From a plasmid, in sequence record NZ_CP064762.1: a DNA stretch of 13,939 nt. One strand, written 5' to 3'. The notes under the pieces are model-generated. The model was given only the letters and a program-made list of their open reading frames with translations, had not been told where the DNA came from and did not search any database. A program made the position numbers and the translations under genes. Numbering within the stretch: position 1 is the stretch's first letter; every line of letters begins with the position of its first letter. Positions 1,842 through 13,873 of this stretch are shown one piece after another.

Positions 1842-4800
1842 ATGCAAAGTAATTTTGAGTTTTTGAAAACTAATCCATTGACTGCTGATTATTTTCCTTC
1901 AGCAACACAAGCTGAAAAATCGTATGCTCTTGGTTTATATTCTGGTGAAGAAACAAGCATTCGTGTCGTGGCTGAGAACATTGCACGCGATATTGCAGAT
2001 CAACAGTTCTTGAATGTTACTAATACTGATACTTTTAATGATGTTCTGCGAGTACTTAAATATGACACTAATATTGATCATGACACGTTGGAGTTATTTT
2101 ATGATCTTAAGCAAAGTGGTAATCAAGCAGCACACCAACTAGCAGTTATGACGGTTTCAAAAACCGACCAAGAGACGGGATTACGTGATTTAAAACGACT
2201 ATACAAATTGTTATTTTGGTTTGTGAACACATTTTATGATCAAACCATTTCTGAAAACGATTTTCATGAACCACAAAGAGAAGATTACATCTACACTGCT
2301 ACAATAACTCCTTCTGCCGCTGAGCGAAACTTAATCTACATTCAGAGTGCTAAAACAGAAAATGGACATTTTATTGATTACATCGGTAGTGAAAAGATAG
2401 GAAAGGCTTCTGTTACTGATCTTGAAGCTGACATGAGTGAAAATAGCGATTATTTGCGTCAAACTGCTCAGAAACGTATCAATCAGTACATGGAGACCGC
2501 AGGTGTGCCTTCTAAATTAGAGTGGGCTGAACTAGCTTACCGCAAGAATGGTGAGCCACATTGGTTTACAGATAAGGATGTTCATAAGGTCCTGGAACGG
2601 TCAAAAGTGCAACACAGTCCCAGTCTTGCGGGTCAGGAATGGTTCAAAACTGATTTGACAACTGCTAAAAAAGCAATCAAAGCTGTTAAGAACAATCAGT
2701 CAGTTATTGATGTTAATGGTAACAAGAATCAGAAACCTAAGATTGTATTGCGTCCAGAACAGCTTGCTGCTGTTAAAAAGACTGAGAAAGCTTTCAAGAA
2801 CAATAAATACACGAACATGCTTTGGAACGCCAAAATGCGGTTCGGAAAGACATTGTCTGCTTTACAGTTAATTAAAGATGAAGGATACAAGCATGTCTTA
2901 ATTATGACGCACAGACCGGCCGTTGATGAGAGCTGGTTCGATGACTTCGTAAAAATAGGAATGCCAGAAGCCGGTTATTTGTATGGCTCAAAGAACCAAG
3001 GTGCAACATTTAAATCACTTCAAGATGGATCGAAGCCGTTTGTTTACTTTGCCAGTTTACAAGACCTGTCAGGTTCAAAGCTAGTCGGTGGTAAGGTTAA
3101 AGATAAGAATCAAGAACTATTTTCTGAAGATTGGGACTTAGTCATTATTGATGAAGCTCACGAAGGTACTCAAACAGAACTAGCCCAACAAGTGTTAAAT
3201 CAAGTCCAGGGTCCTAAAACTAAGTTTCTTGAATTATCTGGTACACCATTCAACATTCTAGATCAATATGAGGACGATCAAGTATATACATGGGATTACA
3301 CAATGGAACAGCGTGCTAAACAACAATGGGAAATTGACCACCCACATGAACCAAATCCATACGCTGGATTACCACGTGTTAACATGTTCACTTTCAGCAT
3401 GAGCGACAAGTTTAAAAATCCTAAATTTAGTCAGGTGGGTGACAAGTCGTTTAACTTTAAGGAGTTTTTCAGAGTTAATGAGCAAGGCAACTTTGTTTAC
3501 GAAAGCTACATTAAGCAGTTTCTGAGAAACATTACAACACCAAGTAAACATACCAGTTATCCATTTTCTACTAACCCATTTCGTGATCAATTACGTCATA
3601 CACTTTGGCTAATGCCAGGTGTTAAAGAAGCCGGAGCAATGGAACGTTTGCTAAAACAGGACCCTGTTCTTGGTGAAATTAGTGGTTATAAGATTATTAA
3701 TGTTGTTAAAGATGTTAGGGGAGAAGATAAAGGTATCACGGATCAGACTGATGTTGATCGTGTTAAATCAGCAATTGGTGATGATCCAGCATCAACTAAG
3801 ACAATAACGCTAACGGTTCGTAAACTTACAACAGGAGTTACTATTAAGCCATGGACAGGTGTTATCTTTTTATCCAACACTAATTCGGCTATGCAATATC
3901 TTCAAGCAGCATTCAGGGCGCAGACACCTTATTCTGACCCCCATTTTGGTACCAAGACTGATTGCTTTATTTTTGATTTTGCACCAGATCGAGCATTAAC
4001 GATTATGGCGGAGTCAGCGCAAATGAACAGCGGTGTGGGTAAACGGACAACAAGTGTTCAGAAACAGCGTATGGCTGATTTGTTAAACTTTCTACCTATC
4101 ATTGGAGAACAGGGTAACCAAATGAGGCCATTTCATGTGGACTCAATGCTTAAACAAATTAAAAAGATATATGCTGAAAAAGCTGTTAAATCAGGCTTTG
4201 AAGATGATTCACTTTATTCAGACGAATTGTTGATGATTAAGGAAGCCGACCTTGAAGACTTTAAGGATTTGAAGGTAATGGTTGGTAAAACCAAACGTGA
4301 AAACACCAAAGTTAAGGTTAATATCAATAATCAAGGACTAACGGACGAGCAGTATGATAAAGCGGTGAGTGGTCAGAAAAAGCCTAAGAAGGAACGTTCA
4401 CCTGAGGAACAAGCTGCTATTGACCAGATGAATGCCATGAAGAAACAGCGTAAAACGCTGATTTCAATTTTGCGTTCAATTTCGATCAGGATTCCATTGA
4501 TGATCTATGGTATGGACGTTGATTTAGCAAAAGATATTAGCATCAACACTTTCGTCGATAAGGTTGATGAGCAATCTTGGAAGGAATTCATGCCTAAGAA
4601 GGTTGATAAGGCACTGTTCCGCAAGTTTATCAAATACTATGACCCACAAGTATTCTTGGAAGCTGGTCAAATTATTCGGCAAAAAGTAAAAGAGCTTGAC
4701 AATGCTGACCCAATTGAACGGATTGGTAAATTAACAGACATTCTAGGCACGTTCCATAATCCTGATAAAGAAACAGTATTGACCCCTTGGCGAGTAGTTA

Positions 4801-6287
4801 ACATGCACCTTGGTAAAACTGTTGGTGGACTATCGTTCTTTGACAAGGATTATAAGTACAATACAGAAAACGGTGAAAGTGCCAATCATTGGATTAGCAC
4901 TGAGTATACTGGCCAAGTATTTAAACCTGATACACATATTCTCGAAATTAACAGTAAAACTGGAACTTATCCTTTATACATGGCAGCATCTTTATACTGG
5001 AAGGGGTTTCAGAAGCTGAATGAACAAACGGCCGGGAAGTTTACTTTAGAAAATGAACTGTTCATTTGGCAAAAGGTCCTTCGTGAGAATATCTTTATGA
5101 TTGCCAAGACGCCAATGGCCAAATCTATTGCCATTCGTACCTTATGTGGCTTCCAGAAATTCAATACTAATATTGAGTACATTGACGGTATTGTTGGGGA
5201 TATTAAAGAAAATATTGGAGTAGAGACTAAAAAGATAAAGGAACGGTTTGGAATGATGAAGTTTGATGTAGTAATCGGGAATCCGCCATATCAACAAGAA
5301 GCAAATGGTGCATCTACTCGTGATGAACCTATTTACCATAATTTTATGGATTTGTCTTATAAACTAGCTCCGTTGGTAACTTTGATCACGCCTGGTAGAT
5401 TCTTGTTTAATGCAGGGCAGACCCCTAAAAAGTGGAATGAGAAAATGCTTAAGAATGATCATTTAAAGGTGGTTATGTATCAGCAAGATAGTAGTAAGAT
5501 CTTCCCAAGGACAGATATTAAGGGGGGAATAGCTATAACCTTGATGGATGCACACAAAAAAATTGGTCCAATTGGAACCTTTACAATTTTTAATCAGCTA
5601 AATTCTATAGTTAAGAAGGTCAACACAAGCAACAGTCTTAGTAAAATTATTTCTTCTCAAGGATTATATAGGTTCAGTGATCTTGCCTTGACATCACATC
5701 CAGAAATATTAGAGAAAACAGGAAAAGGAACTAAAAATAAGATTACATCCAAGGTCTTTGGAACGTTAAGTTCTATTTTTACGTCTAATCCAATTGGAGA
5801 TAATAACATTAAAATGTTGGGACTGGTTGATGGAAAAAGACAATATAGATATATAAAAAGAGACTATATTGAAGAAAATTCATATATTAATAGTTATAAA
5901 GTGTTTATACCTGAATCTAATGGTTCCGGTGCTATTGGCGAAGTGCTGAGCACACCGCTCGTTGGAGCTCCGCTCGTTGGAGCTCCGCTCGTTGGAGCCA
6001 CTGACACCTTTTTGAACATTGGTCCATTTAATAATAAGGATGAGGCAAATAACTTACTTAAATATGTGAAAAGTAAATTCGCAAGAACAATGTTAGGTGT
6101 GAAAAAGATTACGCAACATAATCCTAGTTCAACTTGGACAATGGTTCCACTTCAAGACTTTACTTCTAATTCGGATATTGATTGGTCTCGGCCAATTTCT
6201 GAAATTGATCAGCAACTTTATACTAAGTACAATCTCTCGCAAGATGAAATTGACTTCATTGAAACGAGAGTACAGGCAATGGATTGA
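1842..6287 (+). CDS. Single-polypeptide Type ISP-like restriction-modification enzyme (HEPN/DUF4145-like N-terminus + Mrr-like motif + SF2 DEAH ATPase + gamma-class N6-adenine methyltransferase + TRD)
   Basis: 1481-aa ORF with AGGAG 7 nt upstream.
- Residues ~88-99 carry LKQSGNQAAHQ, a DUF4145/HEPN-type (R/K)xxGNxxAH motif.
- Residues ~148-171 carry DYIYTA...NLIYIQSAK, which resembles the Mrr-family catalytic strand (IYIQxK).
- The ATPase motifs are Walker A MRFGKTLSAL (~333-340), DEAH VIIDEAHEG (~434-442), motif III LSGTP (~465-469) and an Arg-containing motif VI-like QAAFRAQ (~688-694).
- The MTase motifs are X TVLTPWRVVNMHL (~978-990), I ILEINSKTGTYPL (~1033-1045, TaqI-like single Gly), II NIEYIDGI (~1110-1117) and IV FDVVIGNPPY (~1141-1150).
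- About 330 aa follow motif IV, which is consistent with a TRD. Confidence 0.8.
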   Translation: MQSNFEFLKTNPLTADYFPSATQAEKSYALGLYSGEETSIRVVAENIARDIADQQFLNVTNTDTFNDVLRVLKYDTNIDHDTLELFYDLKQSGNQAAHQLAVMTVSKTDQETGLRDLKRLYKLLFWFVNTFYDQTISENDFHEPQREDYIYTATITPSAAERNLIYIQSAKTENGHFIDYIGSEKIGKASVTDLEADMSENSDYLRQTAQKRINQYMETAGVPSKLEWAELAYRKNGEPHWFTDKDVHKVLERSKVQHSPSLAGQEWFKTDLTTAKKAIKAVKNNQSVIDVNGNKNQKPKIVLRPEQLAAVKKTEKAFKNNKYTNMLWNAKMRFGKTLSALQLIKDEGYKHVLIMTHRPAVDESWFDDFVKIGMPEAGYLYGSKNQGATFKSLQDGSKPFVYFASLQDLSGSKLVGGKVKDKNQELFSEDWDLVIIDEAHEGTQTELAQQVLNQVQGPKTKFLELSGTPFNILDQYEDDQVYTWDYTMEQRAKQQWEIDHPHEPNPYAGLPRVNMFTFSMSDKFKNPKFSQVGDKSFNFKEFFRVNEQGNFVYESYIKQFLRNITTPSKHTSYPFSTNPFRDQLRHTLWLMPGVKEAGAMERLLKQDPVLGEISGYKIINVVKDVRGEDKGITDQTDVDRVKSAIGDDPASTKTITLTVRKLTTGVTIKPWTGVIFLSNTNSAMQYLQAAFRAQTPYSDPHFGTKTDCFIFDFAPDRALTIMAESAQMNSGVGKRTTSVQKQRMADLLNFLPIIGEQGNQMRPFHVDSMLKQIKKIYAEKAVKSGFEDDSLYSDELLMIKEADLEDFKDLKVMVGKTKRENTKVKVNINNQGLTDEQYDKAVSGQKKPKKERSPEEQAAIDQMNAMKKQRKTLISILRSISIRIPLMIYGMDVDLAKDISINTFVDKVDEQSWKEFMPKKVDKALFRKFIKYYDPQVFLEAGQIIRQKVKELDNADPIERIGKLTDILGTFHNPDKETVLTPWRVVNMHLGKTVGGLSFFDKDYKYNTENGESANHWISTEYTGQVFKPDTHILEINSKTGTYPLYMAASLYWKGFQKLNEQTAGKFTLENELFIWQKVLRENIFMIAKTPMAKSIAIRTLCGFQKFNTNIEYIDGIVGDIKENIGVETKKIKERFGMMKFDVVIGNPPYQQEANGASTRDEPIYHNFMDLSYKLAPLVTLITPGRFLFNAGQTPKKWNEKMLKNDHLKVVMYQQDSSKIFPRTDIKGGIAITLMDAHKKIGPIGTFTIFNQLNSIVKKVNTSNSLSKIISSQGLYRFSDLALTSHPEILEKTGKGTKNKITSKVFGTLSSIFTSNPIGDNNIKMLGLVDGKRQYRYIKRDYIEENSYINSYKVFIPESNGSGAIGEVLSTPLVGAPLVGAPLVGATDTFLNIGPFNNKDEANNLLKYVKSKFARTMLGVKKITQHNPSSTWTMVPLQDFTSNSDIDWSRPISEIDQQLYTKYNLSQDEIDFIETRVQAMD
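5955..5999 (+). repeat. Perfect 15-bp tandem repeat x3 (ccgctcgttggagcN) encoding PLVGA-PLVGA-PLVGA inside the putative TRD
   Basis: Three contiguous head-to-tail copies are visible directly. Only the last base differs (t/t/c). The repeat is in frame and GC-rich relative to its surroundings. Confidence 0.95.
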
Positions 6288-6289
6288 TT

Positions 6290-6997
6290 ATGAACGAGAA
6301 AATAATAAAGTCGGCTGATAGAGTCAAAAATAATGGTGAAGTTTTCACACCAAGTCGGATCGTTAAAATGATGTTAGCTCAGCCTGAAATTCAAGTTAAA
6401 ATTCACGACCTTTCAGCTACCTTTTTAGAGCCTTCTGCCGGAGAAGGAGCTTTTCTAGTTGAACTGTTAAAGCAAAAGATGGCTGTTGCCTTGTCTAAAA
6501 GTACTAGTGCTGTTACTTATAATCGGAATTGCCTGATAGCACTTAGCAGTTTATATGGTATTGAGTACTTAGAAGATAATGTTGAAATGCTAGTAATGAA
6601 CATGATTACAACTTTTAATCAGCTGTACGTACAAGATATTACTAACTTCGCTAAGAAACCAAATCAACACGTGTTAGAAAGTGCTAAGGTAATAATTCGT
6701 ACTAACATGGCGCAGGGAGATACATTGAAATACGTGAATGCCGACGGTAAACCAATATTGTTAAGCGAGTGGAAACAAGTTGATGGTAAGGCTAATTTGG
6801 TACAACGAACTGAATACACCTTTGAGTCAATTGTTAATGAATCTGGACCAACTAATACTGTTGCTGGCGAGACAGAAGAAATGGACTTATTTGCTGGTAG
6901 TGGATTTTTTGAGGAAAAACCAAAGGCTAAATTACATCGTTATAAGGCTTGCAGGTGGACTGATATTTACAAGCAAGAAATAGAAAATTTACCGTAG
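6290..6997 (+). CDS. Methyltransferase-like protein with motifs X, I and II but no NPPY-type motif IV and no TRD; partner of the upstream RM gene
   Basis: The start is ATG at 6290 or TTG at 6284. Either choice overlaps or abuts the upstream TGA at 6285-6287, which indicates translational coupling. Motif X is GEVFTPSRIVKMML (~18-31), motif I is FLEPSAGEGAFL (~47-58) and motif II is LYGIEYLED (~90-98). At the expected motif IV position the sequence reads AKVIIRTNMAQGD. The protein has 237 aa, and a strong hairpin terminator follows at ~7199-7239. Confidence 0.75.
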   Translation: MNEKIIKSADRVKNNGEVFTPSRIVKMMLAQPEIQVKIHDLSATFLEPSAGEGAFLVELLKQKMAVALSKSTSAVTYNRNCLIALSSLYGIEYLEDNVEMLVMNMITTFNQLYVQDITNFAKKPNQHVLESAKVIIRTNMAQGDTLKYVNADGKPILLSEWKQVDGKANLVQRTEYTFESIVNESGPTNTVAGETEEMDLFAGSGFFEEKPKAKLHRYKACRWTDIYKQEIENLP

Positions 6998-7017
6998 AAT
7001 TGTGAGGTGATTGTATA

Positions 7018-7146
7018 TTGGAAGATGATAGTTATTCAATTTTAAATCAAAGAGCTATTATAGATTTACTTATACAAGGAGACATAATCCCCTATATGAC
7101 TGGATCTGAAATTCAAGATATAGGAATGAAATTTAAATTTTTTTGA
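7018..7146 (+). CDS. Short ORF (42 aa, TTG start; LEDDSYSILNQRAIIDLLIQGDIIPYMTGSEIQDIGMKFKFF), possibly the 5' remnant of a third gene of the RM operon cut by a repeat element
   Basis: GAGGTGA (7004-7010) sits 7 nt before TTG 7018. The ORF ends exactly where the ~70-bp repeated terminator element begins (~7150-7170). No homology was recognised. Confidence 0.2.
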   Translation: MEDDSYSILNQRAIIDLLIQGDIIPYMTGSEIQDIGMKFKFF

Positions 7147-7198
7147 TTCAGTATTTAGGGTCTATAATTACCAAATAACCCCTCGAAAACGTTGTTAA

Positions 7199-7239
7199 AA
7201 TAGCCCCCAATATCTATAATATAGATATTGGGGGCTATT
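7199..7239. terminator. Bidirectional rho-independent terminator (perfect 15-bp stem cccccaatatctata/tatagatattggggg flanked by A- and T-runs) between convergent operons
   Basis: aatagcccccaatatctata-at-atagatattgggggctatt is followed by ttttaatttattttttt and preceded by gttaaaa. It lies between the + operon ending at 6997 and the - operon ending at 7276. Confidence 0.7.
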
Positions 7240-7275
7240 TTAATTTATTTTTTTATAAGTGCCCCTAAACTATAG

Positions 7276-7578
7276 CTATTGATTCAAGATTTCATGGGAG
7301 CCAGTTGCAACCAATAACAAAATCAATTCATCATGATCTAGCTGATAAATAACAATCCAGTTGTCATAATTTTTACCATAGTTTCCATATCTGGCAGGGT
7401 GAAATTCACGATAGCCACGCCAATTTCCTTTTAATGCATGATCTTTAATCTGTTTCAAAACAAGTACATCTTGTTCAACAATTGCTTCTAAACAAGGCTT
7501 CAAGACAGTTATTGGGAAATGTTTTTTGACTAGTTTTTTTAATTCACGTTCAAAAGATTTGGTCTGTTTAATTTGCAT
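7276..7578 (-). CDS. yafQ: Type II toxin, YafQ/RelE-family mRNA interferase
   Basis: 100-aa protein with the C-terminal signature ...WRGYREFH...NWIVIYQLDHDELILLLVATGSHEIL. It overlaps the upstream antitoxin gene by 11 nt. Confidence 0.8.
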   Translation of the reverse strand: MQIKQTKSFERELKKLVKKHFPITVLKPCLEAIVEQDVLVLKQIKDHALKGNWRGYREFHPARYGNYGKNYDNWIVIYQLDHDELILLLVATGSHEILNQ

Positions 7579-7846
7579 CTAACTTATCGATCCAATCTTC
7601 AAAGTCAGTCAATGAACCAATGTTTTTGACCTGCCCTGTTTCTGCTTCTTTTTTAGCGGCTAAGGCTTCCGGAGAATCTAAAAAGCTGACTAATCGAACT
7701 TCATTATTGGCCGCTTTAACTAACGATAAGCGTATATACTCAGAAACGGTTAGCCCTTGTTTTGCTAGATTAGCTTTAGCCCGTTCACTAATGTCAGGTG
7801 TTACACGAGTTGAAATTGTCTTGTTTTTAATAATAGTATTACTCAT
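7568..7846 (-). CDS. dinJ: Type II antitoxin, DinJ/RelB-like ribbon-helix-helix
   Basis: 92-aa protein with an N-terminal RHH-like region (TISTRVTPDISERAKANLAKQGLTVSEYIRLSL). It lies upstream of and overlaps the YafQ-like toxin. A GGGGG RBS sits 10 nt before the ATG. Confidence 0.75.
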   Translation of the reverse strand: MSNTIIKNKTISTRVTPDISERAKANLAKQGLTVSEYIRLSLVKAANNEVRLVSFLDSPEALAAKKEAETGQVKNIGSLTDFEDWIDKLDAN

Positions 7847-7879
7847 TCTAATCCGCCCCCTTTCAGTTTACCATCGTAC

Positions 7880-7915
7880 TACATTATAATATTCGATTTT
7901 TAGGTTTTCTGCAAC
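7880..7915 (-). promoter_or_regulatory. Putative sigma70-type promoter of the dinJ-yafQ operon (minus strand: TTGCAG-17-TATTAT/TATAAT)
   Basis: Read on the minus strand the sequence is ttgcagaaaacctaaaaatcgaatattataat, about 30 nt upstream of the antitoxin RBS. Confidence 0.4.
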
Positions 7916-7949
7916 TAAATTAATTTTAAAGTAAAGGAACTAACAGCTT

Positions 7950-8060
7950 ATGCAACAAGTTGTCTTACCCATCAAAGATTCAAATGTTCTCAAGGAGGTT
8001 CAAGATACGTTACTCAATAACTTTAGAAGCTGTTTAGTATCTTTGATTTTGACCAAATAA
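7950..8060 (+). pseudogene. Truncated duplicate of the 5' end of the tyrosine-recombinase gene (first ~26 codons nearly identical to 11673-11750, then frameshifted to a stop)
   Basis: 7950-8027 is atgcaacaagttgtcttacccatcaaagattcaaatgttctcaaggaggttcaagatacgttactcaataacttt. It matches 11673-11750 with only a few substitutions, and the similarity stops at ~8028. Confidence 0.75.
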
Positions 8061-8094
8061 TTTGATAACTACTGTCAAAAAAGTTGGTGATCAT

Positions 8095-8211
8095 ATGCAA
8101 CATTTTAGTCATCATTACCAAAGCGATATTTCTCGGCAACAATTCGATTTGATCCGCCAGGATCTGGAAGCTTCAAGGTCCCCAATTCCCCCCTCACTCA
8201 AAAAGGAGTGA
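8095..8211 (+). pseudogene. N-terminal fragment of a DDE transposase (DUF4096-like motif, MQHFSHHYQSDISRQQFDLIRQDLE...), truncated
   Basis: The 38-codon ORF begins with a sequence resembling the 'LTDEQWELIEPLL' N-termini of IS5/IS1182-type transposases. There is no downstream continuation. Confidence 0.3.
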
Positions 8212-8306
8212 GCGAAGCCCACGCTCACATTTAACTGCGCCTCCCGTTGGTCGTTGCTAAAATCAAGCCCATGGTTAGGAAACTTCGGTCACACCCTCAG
8301 GCAGAA

Positions 8307-8528
8307 TTAAATAGCGTTAATAGCTGATCTGGCCCTTTGAAGTTGTTTGAATTCTTTGGACGTTACTTCAGTACCGTCTTCTAGCTCAACTGATTTAGCG
8401 CCTTTAACCCAATTCCGAATTGAATCGGCTGAAGGACCGTATTCCTTGGATAATTCATCGGATCGTCGTCCCGCTTTAACCATCTCCACAATGGACTTTT
8501 TTAAGTCCTCTTCATAACGTGTAACCAT
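8307..8528 (-). pseudogene. IS3-family transposase OrfA (HTH, PF01527-like), 3'-truncated
   Basis: MVTRYEEDLKKSIVEMVKAGRRSDELSKEYGPSADSIRNWVKG...SKEFKQLQ fits the IS3/IS911 OrfA HTH plus the start of a leucine zipper. It is truncated after ~70 aa and has no orfB. An AGGAGCA RBS lies within the adjacent 62-bp IS-end element. Confidence 0.7.
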
Positions 8529-8537
8529 AAATAAAAA

Positions 8538-8599
8538 TGCTCCTATGATGATATTTTACCAAACTAGCAAAACTAGTCCGGAATCTCATCATAAGAGCA
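8538..8599 (-). mobile_element. 62-bp IS-end-like element (copy A). It begins TG..., ends ...CA, carries internal 15-bp palindromic arms, and is contiguous with the IS3-like orfA fragment
   Basis: tgctcctatgatgatattttaccaaactagcaaaactagtccggaatctcatcataagagca. It is 57/62 identical to the reverse complement of 10402-10463. Confidence 0.5.
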
Positions 8600-8653
8600 T
8601 GTATACTTGTGTATAGTAAGTTTGTTGAACTGCAACAAATACAGGAGGAACAA

Positions 8654-9706
8654 ATGTTTTTAGCAATTAGAGAGATTAAAAAAGAAAAACTACGGTACGG
8701 CTTGATTCTAACAGTCGTCGTCTTAATCAGTTATTTGATTTTCATTTTAAGTGCCCTGGCGCTCGGGCTGGCAACAGCTAACACCGCTGCGGTGGACAGC
8801 TGGCAGTCTAAGTCCTTTGTAATGACCAAAGACGCTAATGGCAATGCCGGACAGTCATTACTGACAACGAAACAGGTGGATCAGTTAAGCGACGACAAAA
8901 CCGCAACACTTGGCATTACACCAGTTAATATGAAAATTGGCGGAAAACGTGAATCCGCACAATTCGTTGGGATGAATAACGACGAGTACATCGCTAAAAA
9001 CCTACAATTAACCAAGGGGCACTTGCCAAAGGCAGCTAACGAAGTCGTCCTCGCTGACTCAGTTGATAAGGATATTTACGGTATGGGGGATAAAATTTCG
9101 ATTGGGTTATCTGATACGAAATATAAAATCGTGGGTTATGCGAAAAATGCCACGTATAACACCGCACCTGTTATTTATGGCGCGTTAGCGCAATGGCGTG
9201 TCATTAAGGGCGTGTCAGATCAATTCCAAGGTAGCGTAGTTACTTCAAAAACGTCACAATCGGTCGATGATAAAGCATTAAAGACTTATTCATACCAAGC
9301 CTTTATCAATAAATTGCCAGGTTATACACCGCAAAAAGCGACGTTTGGTCTCATGATTGGCTTCCTGATTGTCATTTCATTGATTGTGATTACCATCTTC
9401 CTCTACATTCTAACGGTTCAAAAATTGCCTAACTTGGCAGTTTTGCGTGCACAAGGCATTCCAAATCGTTTCTTGGCCCAAAATACGTTATTTGAGACGT
9501 TCTTTATTATGGCAACTGGTATCGTCGTTGGTGCTGTACTATCGGCATTAACTGAATTTGGGATTCCAGATAGCGTACCAATGGCATTTGATTGGGGATT
9601 GATGGGACTCATTGCGGCCGGATTGATGGTAACCGGGTTACTGGGTGCAATCATTCCGATTCGTGTGATTAGTAAGATTGATCCGGTATCAGTAATTGGA
9701 GGTTAA
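8654..9706 (+). CDS. ABC transporter permease, FtsX/MacB-like (N-terminal TM, large extracytoplasmic domain, three C-terminal TM helices)
   Basis: AGGAGG (8643-8648) precedes ATG 8654. The ORF-track start at 8609 is probably too far upstream. Hydrophobic segments occur at ~15-40 and in the last ~130 aa. The next gene is translationally coupled. Confidence 0.85.
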   Translation: MFLAIREIKKEKLRYGLILTVVVLISYLIFILSALALGLATANTAAVDSWQSKSFVMTKDANGNAGQSLLTTKQVDQLSDDKTATLGITPVNMKIGGKRESAQFVGMNNDEYIAKNLQLTKGHLPKAANEVVLADSVDKDIYGMGDKISIGLSDTKYKIVGYAKNATYNTAPVIYGALAQWRVIKGVSDQFQGSVVTSKTSQSVDDKALKTYSYQAFINKLPGYTPQKATFGLMIGFLIVISLIVITIFLYILTVQKLPNLAVLRAQGIPNRFLAQNTLFETFFIMATGIVVGAVLSALTEFGIPDSVPMAFDWGLMGLIAAGLMVTGLLGAIIPIRVISKIDPVSVIGG

Positions 9707-9710
9707 AAAG

Positions 9711-10391
9711 ATGCGTGAAGAAAAACTAGCCCTTGAACACGTGACGAAACAATTTGGTCAGAAAACCAATTTAGTTACGGCACTAGAAGACGTCAGTTTA
9801 GCGTTTAAAGCTGGTGAGGTGTCGCTTATCATTGGTCCTTCAGGATCTGGTAAAAGTACCTTGCTAACCATTTTAGGCGGGTTACAGACACCAACAGACG
9901 GCTCAGTTCGTTTGAATGGTCACGACATCAGTGATTTGAGTACCAAAGAAGCCGAAAAAACACGACTTGAACAAATCGGTTTCGTCTTACAGGCGTACAA
10001 TCTCGTGCCATATTTAACCGTAGCAGACCAATTCAAACTTGTTGACCAGGTGAAGCCTAACAATAACCTCAGTCAAGATGGATTTGACAAAATTATTGAA
10101 ACGCTAGGCATTCAAAAATTATTAAACAAATACCCTGGCGAATTGTCTGGCGGTCAACAACAGCGCGTTGCAATTGCCCGTGCGTTGTATACAGACCCGG
10201 CGATCATCCTAGCCGATGAACCTACGGCAGCATTAGATACGGCACGTGTCAAAGAAGTTGGCCAACTTTTTGCTAATATTGCGCATGACGAGGAAAAAGC
10301 AGTCGTCATCGTCACGCACGATGATCGTCTGCGAGAGTTTTCTGATAATGTCTACAAAATTGTCGACGGAAAACTATCTAATACGGACTGA
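9711..10391 (+). CDS. ABC transporter ATP-binding protein
   Basis: The motifs present are Walker A GPSGSGKST, Q-loop, ABC signature LSGGQQQRVAIARAL, Walker B IILADEPTAALD and H-loop VTHD. GGAGG at 9698-9702 precedes ATG 9711. Confidence 0.9.
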   Translation: MREEKLALEHVTKQFGQKTNLVTALEDVSLAFKAGEVSLIIGPSGSGKSTLLTILGGLQTPTDGSVRLNGHDISDLSTKEAEKTRLEQIGFVLQAYNLVPYLTVADQFKLVDQVKPNNNLSQDGFDKIIETLGIQKLLNKYPGELSGGQQQRVAIARALYTDPAIILADEPTAALDTARVKEVGQLFANIAHDEEKAVVIVTHDDRLREFSDNVYKIVDGKLSNTD

Positions 10392-10401
10392 TTAACACAC
10401 T

Positions 10402-10463
10402 TGCTCTTATGCTGATATTCCGGACTAGTTTTTCTCGTTTGGTAAAATATCATCATAAGAGCA
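10402..10463 (+). mobile_element. 62-bp IS-end-like element (copy B), inverted relative to copy A and not followed by a transposase gene (solo end)
   Basis: tgctcttatgctgatattccggactagtttttctcgtttggtaaaatatcatcataagagca. Together with copy A it brackets the two ABC genes as an inverted pair. Confidence 0.5.
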
Positions 10464-10559
10464 ATAGATTATTTAGTTATGTTTTTGTCGAGCTTGCATT
10501 TTTGCTAGTCCGCTTGTAGCAAGGGTTTCAGCCCAATATAATAACTAAAATTTATAAGG

Positions 10560-10742
10560 TTACTTTTCAAATGTGTTGATTATCCATTGCAGAGAAAAGA
10601 ACACAATAAAAATGATAAGAATAGGAAGCAGTCTAGCCAGCCAAATATTGATGTTTGGATATTGTGACAGAGTATGATAGAGCCATTGGGCAATTATAAA
10701 AGCGCCCAATCCGCTGACGATTTATTTGATGTTTTTATACAT
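10560..10742 (-). pseudogene. Small two-TM hydrophobic protein gene (~60 aa) with its own promoter and GGAGA RBS, interrupted by an in-frame TAA at codon 7
   Basis: The minus strand reads ttggagaaataacATG TAT AAA AAC ATC AAA TAA ATC GTC AGC GGA TTG GGC... and translates to MYKNIK*IVSGLGAFIIAQWLYHTLSQYPNINIWLARLLPILIIFIVFFSLQWIINTFEK. An upstream TTGTTT-17-TATATT promoter is present. An alternative TTG start at 10709 would give 49 aa. Confidence 0.35.
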
Positions 10743-10800
10743 GTTATTTCTCCAATATATTCATACTAATATAGTACCTATAATACCATTAAACAAAAAA

Positions 10801-10842
10801 ACAGCCCCTATTATCTATCCACTAGATAACGGGGGCTGTTTT
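10801..10842. terminator. Hairpin terminator (acagcccctattatctat...atagataacgggggctgt) flanked by A7 and T4
   Basis: Imperfect inverted repeat with an 8-bp GC-rich stem base. aaaaaaa lies upstream and tttt downstream. Confidence 0.55.
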
Positions 10843-10891
10843 ATAGGGGCGATTAAAAAAGGCACAAATAACCCCTCAAAAACGTTTTTAA

Positions 10892-10932
10892 AATAACCCC
10901 CAATATCTATAATGTAGATATTGGGGGTTATT
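10892..10932. terminator. Bidirectional terminator, second copy of the ~70-bp repeated hairpin element (cccccaatatcta / tagatattggggg)
   Basis: aataacccccaatatctataatgtagatattgggggttatt is followed by tgtttttata. It sits 3' of the minus-strand relE-like gene that ends at 10961. Confidence 0.7.
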
Positions 10933-10960
10933 TGTTTTTATATGGTATAAATGACTTCTC

Positions 10961-11317
10961 TTATTCGTCATTTTTTCGATACCTTTTGGAACGATTTTGA
11001 CCAGGAAATAAACGATCATGCGATCCGACTCGAATGCCAATTAAGACTAGTTCATCTTTATCAATCGTATAAACCACCAGGACATCGTTAGTTTCGCTTG
11101 GTGTTTTGTTTTTCGGGGTATCTCGTAAGTGAAATTCATTATAACCGCTCATTCGCCGATTAAGCTCATGATCTTCAAATTCTGGTGGTAATTGTTGTTG
11201 CTCAAGCAACAGGTCAATGGCTGCTCGAACTTCATCAATAATAGATTTGTCTAAACTGGCTAACCGTTTTAGATCAGCATTAAAGGTTGCACGTGGTTTA
11301 AATCTTAGTTTTTTCAT
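10961..11317 (-). CDS. Type II toxin, RelE/ParE/YafQ-superfamily
   Basis: 118-aa protein with C-terminal ...GYNEFHLRD...DVLVVYTIDKDELVLIGIRVGSHDRLF. Its ATG overlaps the antitoxin stop in a TAATG arrangement. Confidence 0.75.
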   Translation of the reverse strand: MKKLRFKPRATFNADLKRLASLDKSIIDEVRAAIDLLLEQQQLPPEFEDHELNRRMSGYNEFHLRDTPKNKTPSETNDVLVVYTIDKDELVLIGIRVGSHDRLFPGQNRSKRYRKNDE

Positions 11318-11595
11318 TATTTAAACTGACCCCAATAATCATCATCTGATTCAACAATTTCATCGTCAGGTAAAACATGGCGTTTAATTAACTGATCACG
11401 TGCAATTGCATATTCTAACGAACCTTCTTTAGCTTTTAATGCTCTTTCTAGCCAGTCCATTTTTTCTTGTGAAACGATGGCTACTGCGCGACTATTTGAA
11501 CGAGCAATATAAACGGTTTCGTCTTCGTCATTAACTTGATCTAAATATTTTTTTAGGTTAGCGCGAAAATCGCTCTGTGTTAGTGCTAATGTCAT
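11317..11595 (-). CDS. Type II antitoxin, Phd/YefM family
   Basis: The N-terminus MTLALTQSDFRANLKKYLDQVNDEDETVYIARSNSRAVAIVSQEKMDWLE is typical of Phd/YefM. AGGGTGG sits 7 nt before ATG 11595, and the ORF-track GTG start at 11604 falls inside that RBS. Confidence 0.8.
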   Translation of the reverse strand: MTLALTQSDFRANLKKYLDQVNDEDETVYIARSNSRAVAIVSQEKMDWLERALKAKEGSLEYAIARDQLIKRHVLPDDEIVESDDDYWGQFK

Positions 11596-11612
11596 ATTTA
11601 CCACCCTTTCAT

Positions 11613-13772: not shown

Positions 13773-13873
13773 GTTTATCAACGAGGTTTTGTCTGTTTAT
13801 CAACGAGGTTTTGTCTGTTTATCAAGTAGGTTTTGTCTGTTTATCAAGTAGGTTTTGTCTGTTTATCAAGTAG
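13773..13873 (+). repeat. Origin iterons: 4.5 contiguous 22-bp direct repeats (gtttatcaaSKAGGttttgtct)
   Basis: The repeats lie at 13773-13794, 13795-13816, 13817-13838 and 13839-13860, with a half-repeat at 13861-13873. Copies 1-2 read ...caacgagg... and copies 3-4 read ...caagtagg.... Confidence 0.9.

What the first reader, a model, noticed from the sequence alone, without database searches (positions are those of the whole stretch)
1842..6997. Two-gene defence locus: Type ISP-like fused nuclease-ATPase-methyltransferase plus a translationally coupled methyltransferase-like half-protein
The 1481-aa protein combines, in one chain and in order, a HEPN/DUF4145-like motif, an Mrr-like IYIQSAK strand, an SF2 ATPase (GKT, DEAH, SGTP), a complete gamma-class N6A-MTase (TPWRVV / LEINSKTGTY / NIEYIDG / NPPY) and a ~330-aa TRD. 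This is the architecture of single-polypeptide Type ISP enzymes such as the LlaGI/LlaBIII class from lactococcal plasmids. Those enzymes act alone, yet here the stop codon overlaps the start of a second gene that encodes only the AdoMet-binding half of an MTase. I considered BREX, DISARM and classical Type I/III systems; the pairing does not match any of them, because there is no PglZ, DrmB, separate S subunit or Mod gene. It may be an uncharacterised variant in which a catalytically inert MTase-like subunit modulates or licenses the fused enzyme.
Basis: partly seen in the sequence, partly recalled or inferred. Interest (0 to 1): 0.85.

Follow-up and report, generated by a model that had tools for sequence, protein, structure and literature searches.

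The report
Two-subunit Type ISP-like restriction-modification system
This plasmid carries an ATP-driven restriction-modification enzyme that always comes with a small partner protein consisting of only the cofactor-binding half of a DNA methylase, a widespread pairing I found no description of and whose division of labour is still unknown.

Summary
Both genes are real and intact. The window matches a Companilactobacillus futsaii theta plasmid at 100% over the locus.

The 1481-aa protein contains, in order:
- an HsdR-like N-terminal domain;
- an SF2 ATPase;
- a linker;
- an Eco57I-family gamma-class adenine methylase fold;
- a hypervariable C-terminal specificity region.

The 235-aa protein (S) is a compact AdoMet-binding half-methylase. 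It has canonical motifs X, I, II and III but carries SEW where NPPY should be.

S is not a gene fragment. Its family has thousands of members of about 235 aa and evolves under purifying selection (dN/dS 0.12). In 77 of 80 genome loci S lies next to the large enzyme's modules. The gene order varies between loci, the modules can be split across genes, and natural fusions of S to the NPPY+TRD half exist.

The motifs degenerate in a reciprocal way. The large protein's own cofactor half always reads (E/D)xxxK(S/T)GxY, with Ala where the ribose-binding acid should be. S keeps the canonical residues.

The system works like a Type ISP enzyme but is not a member of that family. The role of S is inferred, not shown. 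I found no paper describing the pair.

The parts
1842..6287 (+). Large gene (1481 aa): fused nuclease, ATPase, methylase and specificity protein
   Evidence: ORF. SD AGGAG at 1829-1833. Annotated WP_195702120.1 in NZ_CP064862.1.
1842..2306 (+). N-terminal HsdR-N-like domain (DUF4145-like), aa 1-155. Present only in the gene-order-A lineage.
   Evidence: NCBIfam PRK11448 positions 2-192, E 1.9e-18. PADLOC REase_I and PDC-M16A match the N-terminus only. Pfam DUF4145 is sub-threshold at E 0.084. The domain is absent from B/C/D/F-type proteins.
2319..2711 (+). T5orf172 / GIY-YIG-clan putative nuclease domain, aa 160-290 (LIYIQ164, EKIGKA184, RINQY212, HKVL248, EWF266)
   Evidence: Pfam T5orf172 E 7.7e-5, 23.6 bits against cut-off 20. 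The motifs are conserved across all gene arrangements. Positions.
2739..4241 (+). SF2 helicase-like ATPase, aa 300-800 (GKT335, DEAH437, SGTP466, QAAFRAQ688)
   Evidence: Pfam ResIII E 2.2e-16. Motif positions. dN/dS 0.02-0.03.
4242..4721 (+). Linker or 'coupler' region, aa 801-960. No family match.
   Evidence: No Pfam hit. Conserved, with dN/dS 0.02-0.03.
4722..5258 (+). N': the AdoMet-binding half of the large protein's methylase fold, aa 961-1139. Motif X (TPWRVV) is present, motif I is the non-canonical LEINSKTGTY, and Ala1088 replaces the motif II acid.
   Evidence: AF2 model strands b1-b3. K1039, T/S1040 and G1041 in 71 of 71 sequences and A1088 in 70 of 71. hhalign against the S family aligns motifs X and I.
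5259..6284 (+). CT cassette: the catalytic half (b4-NPPY at nt 5280-5291) plus the TRD and C-terminal helices, aa 1140-1481. This is the hypervariable, shuffled specificity module.
   Evidence: Pfam Eco57I. PADLOC IIG and MTase_II models match 1129-1480. NPPY in 63 of 63 sequences. dN 0.3-0.7 against 0.04-0.09 for the rest of the protein. It is a separate gene in C-type loci.
6290..6997 (+). S gene (235 aa): a stand-alone AdoMet-binding half-methylase. Motifs X GEVFTP, I FLEPSAGEGAF, II LYGIE, III QGDTL, and SEW in place of NPPY. An alternative TTG start at 6284 overlaps the upstream stop codon.
7196..7242 (.). 20-bp-stem bidirectional terminator that ends the operon and separates it from the convergent toxin-antitoxin pair

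Best explanation
The locus is a two-subunit, ATP-dependent restriction-modification system that works like a Type ISP enzyme.

The large subunit would read an asymmetric DNA site with its C-terminal TRD and flip the target adenine into the invariant NPPY pocket. On unmodified DNA it would use its SF2 ATPase to translocate and its T5orf172/GIY-YIG-type domain to cut. These steps are inferred from the domains and from the behaviour of Type ISP enzymes.

The small protein S is an obligatory, stoichiometric partner. It is a closed five-stranded half-methylase that keeps every canonical AdoMet-binding residue but has no catalytic motif and no DNA-recognition domain. The large subunit's own cofactor half (N') has lost the glycine loop and the ribose-binding acid.

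I therefore propose that S is the AdoMet-binding subunit. It would be needed for host-protective methylation, or for AdoMet-dependent licensing of the enzyme. It would dock onto the conserved body of the enzyme, next to the catalytic/TRD cassette.

What is shown: the domain content, the fold, the motif patterns, the co-occurrence, the fusions and the selection on both genes. What is inferred: AdoMet binding by S, the failure of N' to bind AdoMet, and every enzymatic activity.
For: Domains of the large protein:
- Pfam, PADLOC and NCBIfam hits.
- The T5orf172 motifs are conserved in all lineages.
- The AF2 model of residues 940-1481 (pLDDT 87.6) matches CamA (E 1.5e-14), BrxX/PglX, LlaBIII (3.8e-11) and LlaGI.

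Nature of S:
- In 130 S-family representatives (clustered at 50% identity), motif I ExxxGxGxF is present in 126-129, the motif II acid in 130, and G(D/N) in 129. None has NPPY.

State of N':
- Among 71 N' sequences, K-(S/T)-G replaces the G-x-G loop in 71, and Ala sits at the acid position in 70. NPPY is kept in 63 of 63.

Partnership:
- S lies beside the partner modules in 77 of 80 genome loci, in at least five gene orders.
- Natural S::CT fusion proteins exist.
- The S start usually overlaps or abuts the stop codon of the neighbouring gene.
- dN/dS is 0.12 for S.
- S identity tracks the nuclease, motor and N' regions (rho 0.63-0.72), not the CT/TRD cassette (rho 0.11-0.20).
Against: - No biochemical or methylome data were found for any member of the family.
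- N' keeps motif X, the motif I acid, one glycine and the aromatic residue. It might still bind AdoMet in a non-canonical way, which would make the large enzyme self-sufficient.
- AF2 packs N' against the catalytic half as a normal methylase fold. S has its own b4-like strand. It is therefore unclear how AdoMet held by S could reach the NPPY pocket.
- Co-folding could not be run.
- One orphan S::CT protein occurs without any motor gene nearby. This does not fit a simple three-part complex.
Confidence: 0.55

Rival explanations
1. The large enzyme is self-sufficient, as LlaGI is. It binds AdoMet through its unusual K-(S/T)-G pocket. S is a regulator rather than the cofactor subunit. For example, it could sense AdoMet and tune restriction against modification when the plasmid enters a new host. 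It could also detect AdoMet depletion caused by phage enzymes.
For: N' forms a complete, confidently modelled fold with the catalytic half. N' retains motif X, an acidic residue, one Gly and an aromatic residue in motif I. S co-varies with the constant body of the enzyme, not with the specificity cassette.
Against: The acid at the end of strand b2 is the most conserved AdoMet contact in this fold (established knowledge). It is Ala in 70 of 71 N' sequences. The S::CT fusions suggest S works in direct contact with the catalytic half.
Confidence: 0.25
2. Alternating partners. The NPPY+TRD cassette (CT) completes a methylase fold with either of two N-terminal halves. Paired with S it is AdoMet-competent and methylates. 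Paired with N' it is AdoMet-incompetent and tethered to the motor and nuclease, and it restricts. One specificity module would then serve both activities.
For: CT occurs fused behind N' (gene orders A, B, F) or behind S (gene order D), or as a free gene placed directly after S (gene order C). The evolutionary recombination breakpoint lies at the b3/b4 junction. The degeneracy of S and N' is reciprocal.
Against: The S model is a closed domain with its own b4'/b5' hairpin, which would occupy the position CT's b4 needs. In the window N' is covalently joined to CT and would have to be displaced.
Confidence: 0.13
3. S is a decaying remnant of a disrupted methylase gene and has no function.
For: S lacks motif IV and a TRD. 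NCBI annotates it simply as 'N-6 DNA methylase'.
Against: The family has 1177 clusters at 90% identity and 3523 clusters at 50% identity, nearly all of 200-260 aa. dN/dS is 0.12. The cofactor motifs are invariant. No CT-like continuation lies downstream in any reading frame.
Confidence: 0.02
4. The system is not a restriction-modification system. The NPPY pocket would only read DNA, there would be no host methylation, and the system would act as a modification-independent or abortive defence, or in plasmid maintenance.
For: Both cofactor sites look incomplete on their own. The B. subtilis DnmA-YeeB-YeeC cluster, which has the same domain set, showed no restriction in tests (PMC9973331). The locus sits among toxin-antitoxin genes.
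Against: NPPY is invariant and the AdoMet motifs of S are invariant. The TRD cassette is shuffled in the way specificity modules of RM systems are. Diverse defence genes are inserted between the two genes in relatives.
Confidence: 0.05

Closest known systems
[quoted passage not shown]
   Same: The domain order is nuclease, SF2 ATPase, linker, gamma-class N6A methylase, TRD, in one chain of about 1500 aa. Both are plasmid-borne in lactic acid bacteria. The constant body is conserved while the TRD diverges, as with LlaGI and LlaBIII (PMC3553950). Both appear among the fold matches.
   Different: There is no sequence-level match. The nuclease is T5orf172/GIY-YIG-type rather than Mrr. There is an extra HsdR-like N-terminal domain. 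Motifs I and II are non-canonical. A second subunit (S) is obligatory. The swapped cassette includes the catalytic half of the methylase, not just the TRD.
DnmA(YeeA)-YeeB-YeeC cluster (B. subtilis; Vibrio crassostreae)
   Same: The same three functions are present: an MmeI-like methylase with TRD, an SF2 helicase and a T5orf172 protein. According to PMC9973331 the cluster is linked to phage defence in Vibrio.
   Different: The three functions are separate genes in a different order, and no half-methylase partner has been reported. Homology to this locus was not tested here.
Type I systems (EcoKI-type HsdR; HsdM/HsdS)
   Same: The N-terminal roughly 200 aa are homologous to the N-terminus of HsdR. 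Both have a multi-subunit logic with a shuffled specificity module. In both, accessory defence genes are embedded in the operon.
   Different: There is no HsdS and no PD-(D/E)xK nuclease. The full-length HsdR model scores 65.9 bits against a cut-off of 729.
CamA and PglX/BrxX (gamma-class N6A methylase plus TRD; Eco57I Pfam family for the large protein)
   Same: These are the best structural matches for residues 940-1481. The Eco57I domain scores above threshold.
   Different: Those enzymes carry canonical cofactor motifs in a single chain, and none has a half-domain partner of this kind.
Methylase heterodimers with an inactive paralogue (METTL3-METTL14, DNMT3A-DNMT3L; from my own knowledge)
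   Same: A non-catalytic methylase-like partner is required by, or stimulates, an active methylase.
   Different: In those pairs one protomer has both the cofactor site and the catalytic site. Here the two features appear to be divided between the two proteins.
MANTIS / Gao_RL (bioRxiv 10.64898/2026.09.23.753747)
   Same: A methylase needs accessory proteins for hemimethylation, and a helicase-nuclease acts as effector.
   Different: Its accessory proteins are a AAA+ ATPase and MtsB, which has no known fold. Its nuclease is of the PLD type. No PADLOC match to this system was found.

Membership tests
Type ISP (LlaGI/LlaBIII) | A single chain with nuclease, SF2 ATPase, gamma-class methylase and TRD in that order | tested here: met
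Type ISP (LlaGI/LlaBIII) | An Mrr-family (PD-(D/E)xK) nuclease domain | tested here: not met
   No Mrr_cat hit. T5orf172 is found instead. In L. reuteri a true Mrr protein is encoded by a separate inserted gene.
Type ISP (LlaGI/LlaBIII) | One polypeptide carries out every function, with no accessory subunit | tested here: not met
   S is adjacent to the partner modules in 77 of 80 loci, is under purifying selection, and is fused to CT in some genomes. The requirement for S is inferred, not shown biochemically.
Type ISP (LlaGI/LlaBIII) | Sequence homology to LlaGI or LlaBIII | tested here: not met
   phmmer and a profile search against PDB sequences, which include entries 4XQK and 5FFJ, found nothing. 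Only fold-level similarity was seen.
Type ISP (LlaGI/LlaBIII) | One-strand methylation of an asymmetric site, with ATP-driven collision cleavage between head-to-head sites | not testable with these tools
   This needs a methylome and biochemical assays.
Eco57I-family gamma-class N6-adenine methylase (PF07669) | A domain match above the gathering score, with an NPPY catalytic motif | tested here: met
   93 bits against a cut-off of 25.3. NPPY is invariant.
Eco57I-family gamma-class N6-adenine methylase (PF07669) | Canonical AdoMet motifs: I (PxxGxGxF) and the motif II acid | tested here: not met
   In the large protein motif I is EINSKTGTY and Ala1088 sits at the acid position. The same pattern holds in 70-71 of 71 relatives. 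S meets both criteria.
T5orf172 / GIY-YIG clan | A Pfam match above the cut-off, with the conserved motifs IY.Y, KIG.T, R, H and EWF | tested here: met
   20.9-23.6 bits against a cut-off of 20, which is marginal. The motifs are conserved in all lineages. Nuclease activity was not tested.
Type I HsdR | A full-length match to the HsdR model | tested here: not met
   65.9 bits against a cut-off of 729. Only the N-terminal roughly 200 aa align.
BREX / DISARM / MANTIS / Hma | The signature proteins of these systems (PglZ, BrxC, DrmA/B, MtsA/B and so on) | tested here: not met
   PADLOC returned only IIG, MTase and REase_I models for both proteins. No such genes are present in the window.

The most novel reading that the evidence does not exclude
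The methylase active site is divided between two polypeptides. S would hold AdoMet, and the large subunit would hold the flipped adenine and the TRD. The large subunit's own cofactor half (N') would be a pseudo-domain that ties the specificity cassette to the motor and nuclease. The NPPY+TRD cassette would switch between S (modification) and N' (restriction). This would be a new way for an RM enzyme to separate self-protection from attack. It would also explain why the cassette recombines exactly at the b3/b4 junction of the Rossmann fold.
Probability: 0.2. Interest if true: 0.85.

Novelty: new variant of a known kind. Interest (0 to 1): 0.62.

Why it matters
If S is required, single-chain ATP-dependent RM enzymes are not one class. 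A large family on plasmids of dairy lactococci, lactobacilli and drug-resistance enterococcal plasmids would use a separate cofactor-binding subunit.

That would give a natural system for studying how methylation and restriction are partitioned. It would explain annotations that currently call S a 'DNA methylase' even though it cannot be one. It would also matter in practice for transforming lactic acid bacteria and for phage resistance in starter cultures.

Two further features of the family are useful leads in their own right. The catalytic-half-plus-TRD unit behaves as a mobile specificity cassette. In relatives, a slot between the two genes collects other defence genes.

Tried and rejected
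- Sequence searches of both proteins and both family profiles against the PDB found nothing useful: no hits for the large protein and only weak motif X/I hits for S.
- hhalign of the S family against N' is reliable only across motifs X and I. The rest of that alignment is not trustworthy, so I make no claim that S and N' are paralogues.
- MANTIS/Gao_RL was read and rejected as a match.
- Literature searches by protein accession, by T5orf172+helicase+methylase, by GIY-YIG+Type ISP, by Eco57I+Lactococcus and by Type ISP+methylome found no description of the pair.
- The Dolosigranulum pigrum methylome paper does not mention this enzyme.
- A 16-codon mini-ORF after S ends in MKFKFF and superficially recalls the start of CT. 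It gave no profile match and was dismissed as chance.
- The frameshift or fragment explanation for S was tested and rejected.
Full report
**Source and setting.** Window 1842-6997 is 100% identical to Companilactobacillus futsaii CQ16Z11 plasmid unnamed2 (NZ_CP064862.1). Plasmids of Levilactobacillus brevis ATCC 367 and Limosilactobacillus reuteri AN417 carry the same locus at 82-85% identity. The locus follows a Rep3-type repB gene and a DUF536 gene, which is a theta-replicon backbone. It ends at a 20-bp-stem bidirectional terminator at 7196-7242. Beyond that lies a convergent YafQ/RelB pair.

**Checking the observation.** The 1481-aa ORF (1842-6287) has an AGGAG Shine-Dalgarno at 1829-1833. 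The second ORF most likely starts at ATG 6290, two bases after the TGA stop. NCBI uses this start and it fits the N-termini of homologues. Only the alternative TTG at 6284 overlaps the stop codon.

**Domains of the large protein.** Pfam finds ResIII at residues 301-470 (E 2e-16), Eco57I at 1082-1221 (E 2.9e-26) and T5orf172 at 209-282 (23.6 bits against a cut-off of 20 when the N-terminal 300 aa are scanned alone).
- Residues 1-201 match the N-terminus of EcoKI-type HsdR (NCBIfam PRK11448, E 1.9e-18). The Pfam DUF4145 hit itself is sub-threshold.
- There is no Mrr hit. The 'IYIQSAK' strand is the GIY-like strand of a T5orf172 domain. Its motifs (IY.Y, KIG.T, R, H, EWF) are conserved in every lineage of the family.
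- An AlphaFold model of residues 940-1481 (pLDDT 87.6) is a complete methylase fold plus TRD. Its best matches are CamA (E 1.5e-14), BrxX/PglX, LlaBIII (3.8e-11), M.BseCI, DrdV and LlaGI.
- Neither phmmer nor a family profile finds any PDB sequence, LlaGI and LlaBIII included.
- PADLOC returns only Type IIG, methylase and REase_I models, and nothing from BREX, DISARM, Hma or Gao_RL.

**The small protein S.**
- *Sequence matches.* Pfam N6_Mtase matches only profile positions 21-98 of 311.
- *Motifs.* The family alignment shows canonical motif X (GEVFTP), I (FLEPSAGEGAF), II (LYGIE) and III (QGDTL). An invariant SEW follows the fourth strand, where NPPY would normally be.
- *Predicted structure.* The AlphaFold model (pLDDT 85.4, pTM 0.82) is a compact domain. 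It has strands b1 to b3, a b4'/b5' hairpin, a disordered acidic loop (residues 192-212) carrying a conserved DLF, and a C-terminal helix that packs back onto the domain.

**S is a family, not a fragment.**
- A word-indexed search found 1177 clusters at 90% identity. The best 120 are 197-252 aa long and share as little as 53% identity with S.
- An exhaustive profile search found 3523 clusters at 50% identity with E<=1e-3, of which 217 have E<=1e-30. Nearly all are 200-260 aa long.
- dN/dS between the three plasmid copies is 0.12-0.14.
- No CT-like sequence lies downstream of S in any reading frame.

**Co-occurrence and gene arrangements.** Eighty genome loci from across the Bacillota, and a few other phyla, were fetched with the S family. 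They were classified with region-specific HMMs. S lies beside the partner modules in 77 loci. The other three loci are cut by contig ends. The arrangements are:
- A: large gene then S, as in the window (about 41 loci). Some of these have one gene inserted between the two.
- B: S then the large gene (about 30 loci). This form also occurs on Lactococcus dairy plasmids and on Enterococcus optrA/fexA plasmids.
- C: S, then a 350-aa protein that starts at KFKFDVVIGNPPY (CT), then a 1100-aa protein with T5orf172, helicase, linker and N' (6 loci).
- D: an S::CT fusion of 578 aa followed by the motor-N' protein.
- F: S, then N'-CT (513 aa), then the motor protein.

One orphan S::CT protein has no motor gene nearby. 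In several loci the large gene is broken into pieces.

**Reciprocal motif degeneracy.** Among 71 distinct N' sequences, motif I is (E/D)xxxK(S/T)GxY. Lys, Ser/Thr and Gly are each present in 71 of 71. The last residue of strand b2, which is normally the ribose-binding acid, is Ala in 70 of 71. NPPY is present in all 63 sequences that include that region. Among 130 S-family representatives (clustered at 50% identity), ExxxGxGxF is present in 126-129, the b2 acid (E or D) in 130, and G(D/N) in 129. None has NPPY. hhalign aligns S with N' across motifs X and I (probability 64-77%).

**A shuffled cassette.** Between the three plasmids, dN is 0.04-0.09 from the N-terminus through N'. It jumps to 0.3-0.7 from residue 1140 onward. 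Across 56 paired loci, S identity correlates with the T5orf172, motor, linker and N' regions (rho 0.63-0.72). It does not correlate with the CT core or the TRD (rho 0.11-0.20). The recombination boundary therefore coincides with the b3/b4 junction, which is also where the gene is split in C- and D-type loci.

**Interpretation.** The architecture and fold support an ATP-dependent RM enzyme that works like Type ISP. It fails four membership criteria for that family: the nuclease family, the single-polypeptide criterion, sequence homology and canonical motifs. S is clearly an integral partner of the large enzyme. The reciprocal motif pattern and the S::CT fusions make 'S is the AdoMet-binding subunit needed for modification or licensing' the best-supported role.

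This remains an inference. N' might bind AdoMet in a non-canonical way. The modelled N'-CT fold is closed, and S has its own b4-like strand. How AdoMet held by S could serve the NPPY pocket is therefore unresolved.

**Literature.** I found no paper describing the pair. The Type ISP paper PMC3553950 mentions a 'wider cohort' of related enzymes that use helicase domains and GIY-YIG nucleases. The unfused DnmA-YeeB-YeeC cluster has the same domain set (PMC9973331).

**Verdict.** This is a real and widespread variant of ATP-dependent RM systems with an obligatory half-methylase subunit, and I found no description of it. It is interesting but mechanistically unproven.

Noticed in passing
L003:9431-10360; L019:574-1446; L016:8348-9862; L041:8338-9810; L020:9178-9993; L035:4655-5656; L004:8992-9987: In A-type relatives the gap between the large gene and S acts as an insertion slot for varied defence-type genes. 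These include Mrr_N+Mrr_cat, a TIR_2 protein, Schlafen AlbA_2+HATPase_c_4, DUF2971 and several proteins with no family. The window has no insert, only a 2-nt gap.
   Followed up: partly
window 7276-7846 (-) and 10961-11604 (-): There are two type II toxin-antitoxin pairs: YafQ with RelB/DinJ, and a YafQ-family toxin with a Phd-family antitoxin. Both are annotated in the identical plasmid record. The second pair, together with the integrase and hypothetical-gene block, is also found next to the locus in L. brevis plasmid 2.
   Followed up: no
window 13784-13871: Four tandem 22-bp direct repeats (AGGTTTTGTCTGTTTATCAAGT-like) lie upstream of repB on the circular map. They are probably iterons of the theta origin.
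   Followed up: no
window 8609-10391 (+): An ABC transporter permease and ATP-binding pair has higher GC content (about 0.41-0.43) than the rest of the plasmid (about 0.35). This suggests a separately acquired module.
   Followed up: no
NC_015980.1 3912-4518 (hit H4): A Fructilactobacillus sanfranciscensis plasmid holds only the first 607 bp of the large gene, at 98.8% identity, annotated as hypothetical. It is apparently a truncated remnant.
   Followed up: no
L097 (NZ_MT261365.1) 6245-11354: B-type copies of the system sit on many Enterococcus faecium and E. faecalis plasmids. In this record the system lies a few kb from the optrA and fexA resistance genes. Thirty-two of the 66 plasmid hits are enterococcal.
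   Followed up: partly
whole window against NZ_CP064862.1: The window is 13939 bases but the matching circular record is 13805 bases. A simple wrap-around at the offset I tried did not reproduce the window, so the two may differ outside the locus, for example in iteron number.
   Followed up: no
L023, L034, L039, L042, L046, L058: In several chromosomal loci the large gene is broken into two to five pieces while S remains a single ORF. These look like decaying copies.
   Followed up: no
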